From NCBI RefSeq assembly GCF_053078305.1, contig NZ_CP166879.1: a DNA stretch of 64,000 nucleotides; one strand, 5' to 3'. Positions 12,001 through 18,000 of the stretch are shown here, piece after piece (position 1 is the stretch's first letter; each line of letters opens with the position of its first letter). Position numbers: made by a program.

Positions 12001-15000
12001 AGATAATGTCCTGTACAGTTGCGGCATTCCCTGAGAGACGGCGGATGTCGTCCGGCCGATACTGCCACCGGGCCGGGTATTCAGGCCTCCTGAAGACAGT
12101 GACGGCAGCGATGGCAGGGTGATCAGGGCACTGAAAAGCCCCGCAAAAGATGAGGCCATGCGGGAAGGTGCTGTCAGTAATGCCGTGGCATTCCCTTTCA
12201 GCGCCGTGAACGTGGCAGTAAAGGCACTGATATCCTGTACAATCCCCATGCCGGAAACGGCATTTTCCAGGGCGGACACCTTATCGCTGATGGTTTCGGT
12301 CATTGCCTGGACATCGTGCATTCCGTCAGAAATCACCGTCCAGCCCGCTTCCAGGGTTTCAAAAACCTGCCCGAGCGCGGTGGTACTCTTCTGCTCCAGA
12401 ATGGCGGCCGTGTCCTGTGTGACAGCAGGTGCAGTATCATCACTTACCGGCGTGACATTAATGGTGAACTCAACCACGCCCTGTTCAGCGGCGTTATAAC
12501 GACTTTCAAAGCTGTTTATCAGCACATTTAACGTGCCGTAATCCGGGTGAAGCAGCTCCCCGGCACCGGGAGCACGAAGGGCATCACGCAGACGATTTCG
12601 CTGCGTCTGAACATCATCCCCCATCACAAGTACACTGAACGTAAATTCAGCCAGTTTAGGTCCCAGATCGTCTGCCCCACCGGTTTCCCGTAACGGATAT
12701 TCCCGACGGACAATGTTTCGCCCGCCACGTTCGCGCTGCTCACGCCAGACGAGGAACGGCACACCACGGAACGCACCACGACCGTCACCAGAGGCCATAA
12801 TTCCCTCCGTTCCAGACATTCACATCCAGTCCGTGACCGGACGTGTCATCAATATCAATACTGCGAGCCTGCCACCCTTCCGGGGCAACCAGCTCCACAC
12901 GGGCAGAGGCTTTTTGTACCGCCTGTCCACTGCTTTCATCATCACTGCCCCGTAATTTCTGCCAGGCTTCAGTCAGCCACCCCCCCAGATAGTTACCGAG
13001 ATAGCTGCCCACCGTGGAACCAATGGCAATCCCCACAGGTCCGGCTGCCGCCCCCAGCGCACCACCGGCAATACTGCCTGCAAGAGAGCCGACCGCTTCT
13101 CCCTTGTCTGTGATACTGGCGCTGCCATCCAGCAGAACCGGGGCTGCCATCGCGCCAGCCCACAGGGCACCGCCACCCAGCCGTCCAGCCAGTCCACCGG
13201 CACTGCGGAAAAAGCCGGAGAAACGCCCCAGTCCCATGCGGTTACCGGCAGACGAAAGCAACCCACCGGCGCGCCCCATCATGCGCCCCCAGAACCCTGA
13301 CCCACCAGAAGAGGGCGACGGTGGCACAGGGGACGGTGGCAGGGGAGGCGTGACCGGTCTTCCGCGCCCCGGTCCGCGTTTCCTGCGACCCCGCCCCTGA
13401 CGTCCGCCTGAGGATGTATCGGTCGCGCCGGTGCCGGACAGCCCTCCTGCGGGCCAGTTTGTTACAAGCACTGGCTGAACGGCTGCCGGATTTACCCCGG
13501 TAAGAAAGTTTATAAAGCGCTGGCCGCGTCCTGGCGGCGTTCCCGGTACGGTAGTTTGTGGTTTGCGGAAAGGAGAGGTCAGCACGGCCGCCGCGGATAA
13601 TCCGTACCCCAACAATGCCGCTCCTGGTCGCAGTGCTCCCAGCCCGATTGCGCGGACTACCTTCAGTGCACGGGTGGCGAGATACATGTACAGCAGGTAT
13701 TTCGCGGCGGTCTGTGCCCCCTGACCAATGCGATCCAGCGCATCACCATAGCCCGCATCCCGCAGAGCCTGAAGCGTGTCGCGTACCTTTCTGATCGCCT
13801 GATAAAACCCTGTCACTGCATCACGGGCATACTCAAAGCCCTGGTTCATGGCTGATGCTGTGCTTTCCGCCAGGGAATGGTAACTGCCATCAGATTTGGC
13901 ACTGTCAACCCATGAAAGAAATCCCCTGAGATTACCCTTCAGTTTTTCAAATGGCCCACTGTCCATCACATCCCGGGCAAACTGATCCCAGACGTCACCC
14001 ATCATGGCCGTCAGGCCACTCCAGGAATTCATTGCGTCCTTTTGTGCTCCCCTGGCCTGTTCCGCCAGCGTCTGAAATAACAGGCGAATACTGTCCGGCC
14101 CAAGCAGCCCTTTTTCACCAAGTTTTCTGACCACTTTCTGGTCCACACCCAGACGATCAGCCAGCACGCGGTAGGCATTAATGCCGTAGGTGGCAAGAAT
14201 ATTTGCATCCGCCGCCTGAATACTGCCTCTTGCATACATCTGTTTCAGTTGCAGGGATGCCCCCTGTGCATCGGACAGTGACCAGCCGCCCACGGCACCC
14301 TGATCCTGAAGCATGGTGACAAAATTTCGGGCCTCCCTGTCACTCATACCAAAGCCCAGACTGGACGTATATTCCTGCATGACGCCAGCCAGCCCCCAGG
14401 TGGTTTCCTTCGCATTCTGTATTGCCCACCTGCGGACATCATCCGTTTTCGCCCGATCCCCTTTGTAAAGGGAGTTCAGGCGAATCATATAGGTTTCCAT
14501 CTCCGCTGCCGGGCGAATAAATCCCCGGTTAAAGCCATATACAGCAGCACCACCGGCCAGCATTCCGTAAAGATTGCTGATCCGCCCGATGGTGCCGGTA
14601 ATACTGCCCTGAAGACGGTCAAAATCAGAAGTAACATGGCGGATACTGCCCCGCACCCCGGCCAGCGTGCGCTGCATCCTGCTTCCGAGTACATCTGTTT
14701 CCTGCCCGGCACGGCGGGCAGCATTTCCCAGACCACCCAGCCCCGCCTGGCCGGAGTGTGAGAATGCCCCCAGCTCCTGAGACCACTGGCGGGATTTGGC
14801 TGAGATATTGCCGAGCAAATCAACTATCAGAGATGCTCTGAGATTTCGGGCCATACTTACTGCTTCGTTCTGATGATTTTTTCTGTCTGTCGGCAGTGCC
14901 GGTAAAGTTGCGACAGGGGGAGGTTAAGCGCCCATTCCGGGCCGCTTTTTGTCACCATCCCCAGGATAATTGCCGCTTCTTCAATCTGATCCCGACACTG

Positions 15001-18000
15001 CGCCTGATCGCCCCCGGTCAGCTGCCAGCTTTCCGGCAAGCGCGGTATCCAGCAGGCTGACCGCTGCCATCAGGCGGGAGAGATCGCGCTCGCTTAACTG
15101 TCCAATCTGACGGGGTGACAACGGACCTTCAATGTCTCCCACTTCGGCAATCTGACGGCGCAGCAGTGCAACACCGCGTAACGACGGAGACGCTATCAGC
15201 ATCGGGCCATTGTTTGTCTCCACCACGCGCTCGGCTTCTGCTTCTGCGTCAATACTGTCTTTCGCTGTCAGTTCCCGGAACGTGACACGATATTCACGGG
15301 TCTCACCAAACGGCAGACCATCAAGCAGATCCACATATCCCTTTGCCAGTTGCTCTGTCAGCCCGGCAGTGCGTGGATCAGCCCCCTCAAGTGCTTCCCG
15401 GATTGCCTCCATCACGGCTGCCTCGGAAACTGCCGTTTTTTTCTTACGTGTGGTCATTTTATTTTTCCTGATCACTGAACACGGGTACTGGTGGCGCTGG
15501 CGAACTTCACGGAGATCTCCCCGCCACCGTCAAGCGAGGCCGGTTCACTGCTCCAGGCCTTCGTCATCATGTGGACTTCGCCGGTATCCGCCACAAACTC
15601 GATAGTGACCGCAGTCCAGTTGTTGATTTCATCAGCGGCTGGTGAGCCTTCTCCGCCTGCCGGAAATTTGCAGTCCAGCGTCGCTTCACGTGGTTTCTGG
15701 CGGTAACCATAGACTTTCGCGCCTTTCACCACTTCACGTTCAAAACCTGACGGAGAAAATGTAGCCCCCTCAAGCGTCTCGTATTCCTGACCGTTCACAC
15801 GGATAGTGGCCGTGCCCTGATACTGTTTTCCGCTCATGCCTTACCTCACAAAATGAAACGGATCTGTGCTGCCAGGAAGCGGAACTGGTTAACCAGATCC
15901 GGCGTGCATAACACGTCAAGACGGTTTCGATCTGACGCATTACGCTCCACAAGCAGATTCTTTTTAAAGGTGTCCAGATTTTCGACCAGCCCGAGTTCCA
16001 CCCACTCTTCACCCAGCGAAATTAACTGAAGCTTCATGATCTCCGGTGTCACGATATTCTGACCGGCACGAACGGGCGTCCCGTCATCAGCCAGTTTATG
16101 GCGCGGAAAACGTTGTGTGATAAAAGTACGCAGGGAATAACGCAGCCAGGAGAGGGTGTAGATGGTTTCCACATCCAGATAGCTGGGATCACTTTCGCCG
16201 TACACGTTCTGGCGATACATGGTCACCTGACGTTCGATCTGAACCACATCACCGGCAGCCACACTGACCGTGGCAATCCCTCCCCACAGCAGACTGTTAC
16301 GCTCTTCACGCGTCAGACGATCGGCCGGAGCCGGGGCCATGCGTGACGGAAGCGCCAGCGTCTGAAGCGGACGCGCAGGATCTGCTCCCAGAGAGGGTGC
16401 ACAGGTGGCGCAGACCGCCGCGGCCCAGAGGTAATCCGGTTCAGGGGCTTTGGGAATGGATGTGCAGGTCGCCAGAAAATCATTGCGTTTTGCCCCGAAT
16501 GCCTGCACCTCACCAAACGTGCCGGTATGTGCCAGCCACAGCACGCCGTCAGACATTTTGGCCGGTCCCCAGCGTTTCAGAAGCTCATCACTGATGATTT
16601 TCAGGTTTGCATCATCCTTATAGGGCATGACGACATAGTTGTACTGGCGATCGCCCATACCCGCCACGCTTCGGGTGATATCCGGGTTAGCCGCTTTTTG
16701 TTTCGGATAGGCTATAGCGACCTGTATTCCTTCCGGGGTTGCTTCCCCGTCGTGATAGTTCAGGCGCACATCATGCACGGAGCATTCACCGGTAAACCGG
16801 GCGGTGATCCCCAGAGACCCTTTCAGACCTGCGCCATTATCACCACTTCCTGCACCAGAGGAGGCCGTGAAGGGCGCGTCAGGATCGGCATTGATCAGCG
16901 CGGCCAGCTCGTCGGTCAGTTCTTTGCCTTTCTTACCTTTTGGTGCCGGGAGTGTATAACGTCGCCCCCCCACGCAGGCATAAACAATCCCGTCACGGGT
17001 GACCGTTCCGGTCAGATTCATGGCCGCAGCCGTTGCCTGTCCGGTGCCGTTCCCCTGAGCAATGGCATACAGTTCAGCATCAGGATTGATGGCGATAAAT
17101 TCCGCCACCATCAGGGCAATCATGGAGCCGCGCCCCCAGAGTTCTGTTGCCTGAGACGCACGGGTGATCCTGACCGGAACATCCAGAACACCGGTACCGT
17201 CCACGGCATTCTCTTTCATTCTCGCCTGACCAAACAGCAGTACACACTGACGCTGTGCCGGGGTGCCGGTGACAGCCATGGAGTTATTAAACTCAACCTC
17301 AATCAGCGGTATACGGCGGTCATTACCGATCCCGTCAAAATTAATCATTGCGGTTTCTCCTTATCGGATGCCGGTTGGGCGACCGGTTTTTCTGTCGCAG
17401 TCGTTGCATCCGCAGATACAGCCGGAGCCTCTTCAGCGGCTTTTTCAGCCTGAATGACATCGCCGTCATCAAGACGCCGACACCAGAACGGCGTGAAGGG
17501 CTTTTCCTCCCCCTCCTGTGCCAGCGGGCGCATTGTGTCGGGATCACGAATCAGGCGTCCCGGCGCGGGTTTGATAAAGATGGTTTTCATTTACAGTTCC
17601 TCCGGCGGTTCGACCGCCGTTGTCGTGTTCCCCGGCAAATCAATATGTGCCTCAAACGGCAGCGTACCGGGCGGCTCCACAAAGGTTTCGTAATGACGCA
17701 GGAAGTCGTCCAGCGAGCTGATATCCGTCAGTGGCGCGATCATTTCCTCGCAGGAGAAATAAAGCGCATACATCACCGCACCACTGTCCGCCTGGGTTTC
17801 AGTGTAACCGTTGACCGCCTTTTCAAAGTAAAGCGGTGAGGTTTTTTCTGTTCTGAAGCCGTTAAGCACGGCAATCAGCCGGGCCACAATCTGATACAGT
17901 CCGGGACGGCTGGCCTCACGCCCGTTGAGCATGTCGCCGATGACGTAGAACACCCAGTGACTGACCAGGCGACCACGGGTACGGCCTTCACCGGCACCCA

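What the first reader, a model, noticed from the sequence alone, without database searches (positions are those of the whole stretch)
14857..15475. Overlapping ORF after the tail assembly chaperone suggests a non-standard frameshift fusion
A 60-codon ORF (14857-15039) overlaps the last 58 nt of the chaperone gene and ends exactly at the tape measure start, the position of the G/GT-type frameshift extension in other tailed phages. It lies in the +1 frame relative to the chaperone, not -1, and no classical X_XXY_YYZ heptamer is present; the overlap contains a CCGGGGGCG run.
Basis: seen in the sequence. Interest (0 to 1): 0.3.

Follow-up and report, generated by a model that had tools for sequence, protein, structure and literature searches.

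The report
Known Mu-type −2 frameshift in chaperone
This is the tail-assembly-chaperone gene pair of a Mu-like prophage of E. coli, whose long form is made by the already documented phage Mu "−2" ribosomal frameshift on the sequence GG GGG CGA; it is real and conserved, ordinary for this phage family, and simply left unannotated in RefSeq.

Summary
All genes lie on the minus strand. A gp41-type tail assembly chaperone gene (15457..14981) sits between the tail tube and tape measure genes. A +1/−2-frame ORF overlaps it (open 15069..14857) and stops 2 nt before the tape measure ATG.

The overlap holds GGGGGCGA (15015..15008) in the register C.GG.GGG.CGA. This is the octamer on which phage Mu makes its gp41 frameshift product. 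GenBank AF083977 annotates that product as a "verified −2 translational frameshift" (Xu, Hendrix & Duda 2004).

The window is a Mu-like prophage 99% identical to Sp18 of E. coli O157:H7 Sakai.

- **Site conservation:** across 18 gp41 lineages (34–87% protein identity to the window's predicted fusion) the codons GGG-CGA are invariant. Other conserved Gly and Arg codons vary freely.
- **Extension:** it is conserved as protein (phrog_12783, E 4e-39; dN/dS 0.1–0.2 among close lineages).
- **No own start:** half of the lineages have no start codon for it.

It is therefore a programmed frameshift giving a 158-aa chaperone and a predicted 200-aa fusion. Novelty is low; only the annotation is missing. 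Side notes: 4-G site variants, one distant relative with a λ-type −1 heptamer, and a second in-register octamer in the sheath gene.

The parts
15846..17348 (-). Tail sheath gene (context; Mu L homologue)
   Evidence: Pfam Phage_sheath_1, Phage_sheath_domII and Phage_sheath_1C. RefSeq annotates it as 'phage tail sheath protein'.
15472..15837 (-). Tail tube gene, immediately upstream of the chaperone
   Evidence: Pfam Tail_tube PF10618, E 5.6e-31.
14981..15457 (-). Tail assembly chaperone, short (standard-frame) form, 158 aa; homologue of Mu gp41
   Evidence: Pfam Gp41_Mu PF23746 E 4.9e-32, and Phage_TAC_7 just below its cut-off. phrog_508 'tail assembly chaperone' E 3.4e-48. Same coordinates as RefSeq ECs_4981 / WP_000213225 'phage tail assembly protein'.
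15008..15015 (-). Slippery octamer GG GGG CGA (zero-frame codons CGG-GGG-CGA = Arg148-Gly149-Arg150)
   Evidence: Position and register. It is identical to the Mu/D108 site and to the site quoted for Mu in PMC3458567. GGG-CGA is invariant in 18/18 lineages, whereas other conserved Gly codons are GGG in 20/106 cases and other conserved Arg codons are CGA in 1/53.
14857..15012 (-). Extension read after the -2 shift: GGC at 15012..15010 through TAA at 14859..14857, 51 codons. Predicted fusion = join(15457..15011, 15012..14857), 200 aa.
   Evidence: Translation. phrog_12783 E 4.4e-39. Homologous to the Mu extension (tblastn 53% identity, E 2e-12). dN/dS 0.10-0.22 against the closer lineages. No start codon in this frame in 9 of 18 lineages.
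12785..14854 (-). Tape measure protein gene; its ATG lies 2 nt after the extension stop
   Evidence: Pfam TMP_3 PF20155, E 1.8e-18; sequence.

Best explanation
This is the gp41/gp41' tail assembly chaperone pair of a Mu-like myovirus prophage. It is expressed by the programmed -2 ribosomal frameshift already known from phage Mu.

Most ribosomes translate 15457..14981 and make the 158-aa chaperone. A small fraction shifts when GGG (15013..15011) is in the P site and the poorly decoded CGA (15010..15008) is in the A site. These ribosomes slip two bases back on C.GG.GGG.CGA. The P-site tRNA-Gly re-pairs with GGG at 15015..15013. The A site then reads GGC (15012..15010). Translation continues in the new frame to TAA 14859..14857, giving a 200-aa fusion (...AADRG-GDQAQCR...).

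Shown here:
- the anatomy and register of the site;
- homology to Mu of both the chaperone and the extension;
- nucleotide-level invariance of the site;
- purifying selection on the extension;
- absence of a conserved independent start for the extension.

Taken from the literature on Mu: the shift is -2 and ribosomal, with about 2% efficiency in vivo.

Inferred by analogy with lambda gpG/gpGT: the shared N-terminal domain coats the tape measure protein, and the extension recruits the tail tube protein. The fixed low ratio of long to short form is needed for tail assembly, and neither form is in the virion.
For: - **Gene order:** sheath, tube, chaperone, extension, tape measure, DNA-circularisation protein, as in Mu.
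- **Chaperone family:** Gp41_Mu and phrog_508.
- **Extension family:** phrog_12783, E 4e-39. It is homologous to the segment of Mu covered by CDS Mu_56, which is annotated 'verified -2 translational frameshift in PMID 15469818'.
- **Same site as Mu:** the 9-mer CGGGGGCGA is in the same register in Mu/D108. PMC3458567 describes tandem -2 slippage on GG GGG CGA with A-site tRNA-Arg(ICG). PMC3498833 gives an efficiency of about 2.2%. PMC5009743 lists Mu as a -2 case.
- **Site sufficiency:** a 2025 bioRxiv preprint reports that the Mu 10-mer alone gave 14% shifting into the -2/+1 frame in a cell-free system.
- **Site invariance:** (G/A)GGGGCGA is invariant while the flanks vary, in 18 representative lineages at 34-87% protein identity to the window's predicted fusion (site data).
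- **Codon-level constraint:** GGG 18/18 and CGA 18/18 at the site, against 20/106 and 1/53 at other conserved Gly and Arg columns.
- **Third-position G:** the zero-frame codon before GGG always ends in G (CGG, AGG, AAG, GAG). A -2 re-pairing would need this; a +1 shift would not.
- **Frame opening:** the extension frame opens only 1-3 codons before the site in 9/18 lineages, and has no ATG/GTG/TTG upstream of the site in 9/18.
- **Selection on the extension:** dN/dS 0.10-0.22 for the closer pairs.
- **Predicted structure:** the AlphaFold model has a confident N-terminal alpha/beta region (mean pLDDT 84-93, residues 31-130), a low-confidence stretch at the shift point (56-68, residues 141-160), and a helical extension (73-81).
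Against: - Nothing was measured for this prophage. No protein, mass or reporter data exist here.
- The 3' context after CGA differs from Mu (UCA against GUG), so the efficiency could differ.
- No convincing stimulatory RNA structure was found. The window folds give z about 0 and the consensus structure is -7 kcal/mol with no covariation term.
- The octamer also occurs in register in the sheath gene, so the octamer by itself is evidently tolerated inside an essential gene.
- Sequence alone cannot separate -2 from +1.
Confidence: 0.88

Rival explanations
1. The same fusion is made by a +1 shift. With the slowly decoded CGA in an empty A site, the P-site tRNA-Gly slips forward from GGG to GGC. 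The product is ...AADRG-DQAQCR, one Gly shorter.
For: The target frame is the same. GGG followed by a poorly decoded codon resembles classical P-site +1 sites. In 5 of 18 lineages the site has only four Gs (AAG GGG CGA or GAG GGG CGA). There a -2 re-pairing would carry a first-position mismatch, while a +1 slip would be unaffected. The cell-free reporters cannot separate -2 from +1.
Against: For the identical 9-mer in Mu, the shift is recorded as experimentally verified -2. The base before GGG is G in 18/18 lineages, at a synonymous third position and against E. coli codon preference (the preference is from background knowledge, not computed here). Only a backward slip explains this.
Confidence: 0.08
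2. The overlapping ORF is a separate small gene, translated on its own from TTG 15039 or by re-initiation, with no fusion.
For: A TTG exists 8 codons upstream of the G run. D108 annotators listed the equivalent ORF as a separate gene, '41.5'.
Against: There is no Shine-Dalgarno-like sequence before the TTG. The TTG is absent in the close relative L039. In 9/18 lineages no canonical start codon lies upstream of the site, and in 9/18 the frame opens only 1-3 codons before it. The D108 '41.5' start is a CTG chosen downstream of the site. The nucleotide invariance of GGG-CGA has no role in this model.
Confidence: 0.02
3. RNA polymerase slippage on the G5 run makes a minority of mRNAs with one G fewer or two more, which encode the fusion in frame.
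For: A homopolymer run lies at the junction. Databases hold in-frame fusions with one G fewer (P0099, P0100, P0101, P0001).
Against: Five Gs is far shorter than the runs known to give productive transcriptional slippage in bacteria (established knowledge, not tested here). The invariant CGA after the run and the four-G variants do not fit a homopolymer-length mechanism. For the two fusions whose loci were fetched (P0099, P0001), the neighbouring sheath and tape measure genes are also broken, so they look like assembly indels; P0100 and P0101 were not traced to their contigs. The locus L067 carries a second frame error further downstream.
Confidence: 0.02

Closest known systems
Phage Mu gp41 / gp41' (Mup41 and CDS Mu_56 of AF083977.1): -2 programmed ribosomal frameshift (Xu, Hendrix & Duda 2004, Mol Cell 16:11)
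   Same: Same Pfam family (Gp41_Mu). Same gene position between tube and tape measure. Identical 9-mer CGGGGGCGA in the same register. Homologous extension (47-53% identity) of the same length (51 codons after the shift). The extension ends just before the tape measure gene.
   Different: About 45% protein identity overall. The chaperone here has a longer basic N-terminus (MTTRKKK...) and 8 rather than 6 codons after CGA. The 3' context of the site differs (UCA against GUG). The extension frame is open 18 codons upstream of the site here, against 3 in Mu. The tape measure ATG is 2 nt after the extension stop here, against 14 nt in Mu. Nothing has been tested experimentally for this prophage, and RefSeq does not annotate the long form.
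Lambda gpG/gpGT and P2 gpE/gpE+E' tail assembly chaperones (-1 frameshift on G_GGA_AAG-type heptamers)
   Same: Same genomic position. Same logic: two proteins with a common N-terminus at a low fixed ratio, the long form made by recoding. Same presumed role in tape-measure-guided tail assembly.
   Different: Direction and site differ: -2 on GG GGG CGA instead of -1 on X_XXY_YYZ. No detectable sequence similarity of the extension to gpT was tested or seen. One distant gp41 relative found here (L085) does use G_GGA_AAG with a -1-frame extension.
prfB (RF2) type +1 frameshifting
   Same: It reaches the +1 frame at a site with a poorly decoded A-site codon.
   Different: There is no stop codon in the A site, no CUU-type P-site codon, and no Shine-Dalgarno stimulator 3 nt upstream. 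Mu's shift is recorded as -2.

Membership tests
G/GT-type tail assembly chaperone frameshift pair (Xu et al. 2004) | Two overlapping ORFs located between the major tail/tube gene and the tape measure gene | tested here: met
   Tube 15837..15472, chaperone 15457..14981, extension to 14857, tape measure from 14854.
G/GT-type tail assembly chaperone frameshift pair (Xu et al. 2004) | The second ORF has no conserved start of its own and is reached from the first by a conserved slippery site in the overlap | tested here: met
   No start codon upstream of the site in 9/18 lineages. The site is invariant in 18/18.
G/GT-type tail assembly chaperone frameshift pair (Xu et al. 2004) | Two proteins with a common N-terminus are produced at a fixed low ratio, and both are needed for tail assembly | not testable with these tools
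   Needs expression, immunoblot or mass spectrometry, and genetics. About 2.2% is reported for Mu.
Mu gp41/gp41' -2 frameshift | Chaperone belongs to the Gp41_Mu family | tested here: met
   PF23746 E 4.9e-32, 110.7 bits against a cut-off of 27.
Mu gp41/gp41' -2 frameshift | Octamer GG GGG CGA with GGG and CGA as zero-frame codons | tested here: met
   15015..15008, register C.GG.GGG.CGA. Same in Mu/D108. Site as quoted in PMC3458567.
Mu gp41/gp41' -2 frameshift | The extension in the -2/+1 frame is homologous to Mu's | tested here: met
   phrog_12783 E 4.4e-39. tblastn to Mu 53% identity, E 2e-12, under CDS Mu_56. Alignment.
Mu gp41/gp41' -2 frameshift | The shift is -2 (junction ...R-G-G-D...), not +1 (...R-G-D...) | not testable with these tools
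   Only indirect support: G at the position before GGG in 18/18 lineages. Direct evidence exists only for Mu.
Classical -1 frameshift (X_XXY_YYZ heptamer plus 3' structure) | In-register heptamer in the overlap and an extended -1-frame ORF | tested here: not met
   No heptamer in the overlap; the only one in the gene is at 15344. The -1 frame closes 9 codons after the chaperone stop.
Classical -1 frameshift (X_XXY_YYZ heptamer plus 3' structure) | Conserved stimulatory stem-loop or pseudoknot 5-9 nt downstream | tested here: inconclusive
   Window folds give z 0.0 to 0.6. The alifold consensus is -7.1 kcal/mol with covariation -0.07. One long-range 7-bp pairing is 90% kept, but both arms encode conserved residues, and one pair varies without co-variation.

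The most novel reading that the evidence does not exclude
The most novel reading left open has two parts.

First, the site may not be mechanistically uniform across the family. In the four-G variants (AAG/GAG GGG CGA), and conceivably partly here, the shift could be +1 or a mixture of +1 and -2.

Second, the weakly supported long-range pairing CAGUGUC (7 nt 3' of CGA) with GGCACUG (about 105 nt downstream) may tune efficiency. The tape measure ATG, 2 nt after the extension stop and lacking a good Shine-Dalgarno sequence, might be translationally coupled to the frameshifted ribosomes. That would link tape measure dosage to the frameshift rate.
Probability: 0.1. Interest if true: 0.35.

Novelty: already known. 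Interest (0 to 1): 0.12.

Why it matters
It matters mainly for annotation. About 228 complete E. coli genomes carry this prophage segment. In the RefSeq records inspected, the 126 nt between the chaperone and tape measure genes are left empty and the 200-aa long form is missing. The RefSeq Mu record also lacks it.

It also gives a clean comparative data set for one of the few natural -2 frameshift sites. GGG-CGA is invariant, the preceding base is always G, and 13 of 18 lineages have five Gs while 5 have four. This could guide recoding predictors and experiments on -2 versus +1 slippage. It does not change what is known about tail assembly or recoding.

Tried and rejected
- **Downstream stimulatory structure.** Single-sequence folds of the window gave z about 0. 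RNAalifold over 15 lineages gave a weak consensus with no covariation energy. A long-range 7-bp helix scored above shuffles, but it is explained by conserved Cys-Arg and Arg-His-Cys codons. Column pair 26/128 includes four non-pairing cells, so I do not claim it.
- **Mu hairpin.** Mu itself has a stable hairpin 25 nt downstream (z -2.66). It is only partly present in the window.
- **Solved structures.** Sequence search and Foldseek of the AlphaFold model against the PDB found nothing significant.
- **In-frame fusion proteins in databases.** P0099, P0100, P0101 and P0001 looked at first like natural hard-wired fusions. The two loci fetched (P0099, P0001) have fragmented sheath and tape measure genes, so I treat these fusions as assembly indels.
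- **Octamer frequency in the window.** It is at chance level, so frequency is not evidence.
- **Original paper.** Xu et al. 2004 is not held in the library. Its content is cited only through the GenBank note and three later papers.
- **Literature on Sp18.** A search for the frameshift in Sp18 itself listed no paper whose title or abstract concerns it; the listed papers were not opened.
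Full report
**1. What is there**

All genes in this part of the window are on the minus strand. In order of transcription they are:

| Gene | Coordinates | Evidence |
|---|---|---|
| Tail sheath | 17348..15846 | Pfam Phage_sheath domains, |
| Tail tube | 15837..15472 | PF10618, |
| Chaperone, 158 aa | 15457..14981 | see below |
| Alternative-frame ORF | 15039..14857 | see below |
| Tape measure | 14854..12785 | TMP_3, |
| Mu N-type DNA circularisation protein | 12819..11449 | |

- The 158-aa ORF matches Pfam Gp41_Mu (E 4.9e-32) and phrog_508 'tail assembly chaperone' (E 3.4e-48).
- The ORF 15039..14857 is in the +1/−2 frame relative to the chaperone.
- That frame is open from 15069. 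It overlaps the chaperone by 89 nt, or 59 nt from the TTG.
- Its stop TAA is 2 nt before the tape measure ATG.
- The overlap contains GGGGGCGA at 15015..15008, read in the chaperone frame as C.GG.GGG.CGA (Arg-Gly-Arg).
- No in-register X_XXY_YYZ heptamer lies in the overlap.
- The −1 frame closes after 9 codons.

**2. Where the window comes from**

- The segment is 99.2% identical to prophage Sp18 ('Mu-like phage') of E. coli O157:H7 Sakai, and up to 99.7% identical to other STEC chromosomes.
- It occurs in 228 of 5426 complete E. coli genomes.
- The RefSeq records inspected annotate only the short 'phage tail assembly protein'. They leave the 126 nt before the tape measure gene empty.
- A tRNA Leu-Cys-Gly cluster at 44.0–44.3 kb was not checked against the flanks of the Sakai Sp18 locus (5.04–5.08 Mb). 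It suggests a different insertion site.

**3. Comparison with Mu**

- Mu and D108 have ...GAA CGG GGG CGA GTG... at the end of gene 41. This is the same 9-mer CGGGGGCGA in the same register.
- In both, a +1/−2-frame ORF follows and ends just before the tape measure gene.
- D108's annotators called it gene '41.5', with a CTG start.
- The two extensions are clearly homologous:
  - window: GGDQAQCRDQIEEAAIILGMVTKSGPEWALNLPLSQLYRHCRQ...
  - Mu: GGEWLRCRNDIEKAATAIGVILKSGPEWALSLPLSRFFRHCQQ...
  - tblastn gives 53% identity, E 2e-12.
- The window ORF matches phrog_12783 at E 4.4e-39.
- GenBank AF083977.1 carries a two-piece CDS (Mu_56) described as 'verified -2 translational frameshift in PMID 15469818; tail assembly chaperone frameshift product'.
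- The RefSeq copy NC_000929 lacks it.

Later papers describe the same event:
- Tandem −2 slippage occurs on GG GGG CGA. The A-site tRNA-Arg (anticodon ICG) pairs better in the −2 frame than in the −1 frame (PMC3458567).
- Efficiency is about 2.2% (PMC3498833).
- Mu is listed as a natural −2 case (PMC5009743).
- The Mu 10-mer alone gave 14% shifting in a purified cell-free system (bioRxiv 10.1101/2025.10.02.679949).
- The original paper itself is not held in the library.

**4. Conservation beyond Mu**

Two scans of viral contigs gave 81 loci. From these and the annotated records I took 18 distinct lineages, at 34–87% protein identity to the window's predicted fusion.

*The site*
- All 18 carry (G/A)GGGGCGA in register, with an extension of 45–52 codons in the +1/−2 frame.
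- The extension ends within 0–14 nt of the next gene's start, or overlaps it.
- 13 lineages have five Gs (CGG or AGG before GGG).
- 5 lineages have four Gs (AAG or GAG before GGG).

*Codon-level test*

| Position | GGG or CGA used |
|---|---|
| Slip-site Gly | GGG 18/18 |
| Six other conserved Gly columns | GGG 20/106 |
| Slip-site Arg | CGA 18/18 |
| Three other conserved Arg columns | CGA 1/53 |

The constraint is therefore on nucleotides, not on amino acids.

*The base before GGG*
- It is G in 18/18 lineages, although it is a synonymous third position.
- A backward re-pairing needs this. A forward slip does not.

*Independent initiation*
- The extension frame opens only 1–3 codons before the site in 9/18 lineages.
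- It has no ATG/GTG/TTG upstream of the site in 9/18, so it cannot in general be initiated independently.
- The window's TTG 15039 has no Shine-Dalgarno-like sequence and is missing in the close relative L039.

*Selection on the extension*
- dN/dS is 0.10–0.22 against the closer lineages.
- It is 0.12–0.36 within the Mu group.

**5. Mechanism**

The best-supported account is this:
1. Ribosomes with tRNA-Gly on GGG (15013..15011) and the poorly decoded CGA in the A site slip back two bases.
2. They then read GGC (15012..15010) and continue to TAA 14859..14857.
3. The result is a 200-aa fusion, join(15457..15011, 15012..14857), with junction ...AADR-GG-DQAQCR.

Supporting observations:
- No stimulatory RNA structure could be established. 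This is consistent with the report that the 10-mer alone suffices.
- The AlphaFold model (mean pLDDT 78) shows three regions: a confident alpha/beta N-terminal region, a low-confidence stretch at the shift point, and a helical extension.
- No solved structure resembles it.

The function of the two forms is inferred from lambda gpG/gpGT as summarised in PMC5009743. The common domain binds the tape measure protein. The extension recruits the tube subunit.

**6. Rivals**

- **+1 shift:** gives the same frame with one Gly fewer. It cannot be excluded by sequence and is most plausible for the four-G variants. It is contradicted for the identical Mu site by the published verification, and by the invariant G before GGG.
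- **Independent initiation and transcriptional slippage:** both are poorly supported. Details are in the rival entries.
- **In-frame fusion proteins in databases**: the two traced to their contigs come from assemblies with other broken genes.

**7. Verdict**

The finding is real and correctly interpreted. It is the known Mu-type −2 frameshift in an orthologous Mu-like prophage. Novelty is low. The practical value is the missing annotation and the comparative picture of the site.

Noticed in passing
window 16962-16971 (minus strand), in the tail sheath gene, codons 127-129: A second GG GGG CGA, within GTG GGG GGG CGA, lies in the same codon register inside the sheath gene. A -2 shift there would add 16 residues and then terminate. 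It is absent from the 87%-identical relative L002, so it is probably a chance, tolerated copy. It also suggests that the octamer alone is affordable inside an essential gene.
   Followed up: partly
L023, L053, L057 (Salmonella/Serratia-type), L083, L084: site region near locus positions 1947, 1641, 1662, 1539, 1533: Five of 18 gp41 lineages have a four-G site (AAG GGG CGA or GAG GGG CGA), with the extension still in the +1/-2 frame. In L083 and L084 the chaperone stop follows CGA directly. A -2 re-pairing would carry a first-position mismatch there, so +1 or mixed shifting is conceivable.
   Followed up: partly
L085 (IMGVR_UViG_3300024581_003828), chaperone end near 1560-1584: The most distant gp41 relative retrieved (35% identity) lacks GGGCGA. 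It has the lambda-type heptamer G_GGA_AAG, with a 47-codon extension past the stop in the -1 frame. The family therefore contains both -1 and -2 solutions.
   Followed up: no
P0099 (L086), P0001 (L087), P0100, P0101, L067: Public databases hold single-frame 'fusion' chaperones with one Gly at the junction (one G missing from the run). For the two loci fetched (L086, L087), the neighbouring sheath and tape measure genes are also fragmented, so these fusions are most likely homopolymer assembly errors, not natural hard-wired fusions. P0100 and P0101 were not traced to their contigs.
   Followed up: yes
window 14993-14999 pairing with about 14887-14893 (minus strand); alignment A2 columns 21-27 with 127-133: A possible long-range 7-bp pairing: CAGUGUC, starting 7 nt 3' of CGA, with GGCACUG about 105 nt downstream. 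It is kept in 90% of cells across 15 lineages, and 2 of 500 shuffles reach its covariation score. However, both arms encode conserved Cys-Arg and Arg-His-Cys, and one column pair varies without co-variation. Not claimed as functional.
   Followed up: partly
window 14852-14884 (minus strand): The tape measure ATG follows the extension stop by 2 nt (TAA GT ATG) and has no clear Shine-Dalgarno sequence, whereas Mu has AGGAAA. In most lineages the extension stop is within 0-5 nt of, or overlaps, the tape measure start. Tape measure translation might be coupled to the frameshifted ribosomes. This is speculative.
   Followed up: no
window 14855-14980 versus the RefSeq annotation (L003, L004) and NC_000929 (L088): RefSeq/PGAP records of E. 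coli, and the RefSeq Mu record, leave the extension unannotated (a 126-nt 'intergenic' gap). Only GenBank AF083977.1 carries the two-piece frameshift CDS.
   Followed up: yes
window 44013-44314 (minus strand): A tRNA-Leu(taa), tRNA-Cys(gca), tRNA-Gly(gcc) cluster about 29 kb from the finding. From background knowledge this cluster (glyW-cysT-leuZ) lies elsewhere on the E. coli chromosome than the Sakai Sp18 locus (5.04-5.08 Mb). If so, this near-identical Mu-like prophage is inserted at a different site, as expected for a transposable phage. Not checked with tools.
   Followed up: no
L001 (D108) 4368-4448: In Mu/D108 the extension coding region forms a stable hairpin (GAGAAAGCGGCGACAGCG ... 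CGCUGUCCCGCUUUUUC; -43 kcal/mol for the 108-nt segment, z -2.66) starting 25 nt after the slip site. Only a weak remnant is seen in the window.
   Followed up: partly
window 15338-15344 (minus strand): An in-register A_AAG_GGA heptamer lies at chaperone codons 38-40, more than 300 nt upstream of the overlap, which begins at 15069. Whether the -1 frame there continues into an extended ORF was not checked.
   Followed up: no
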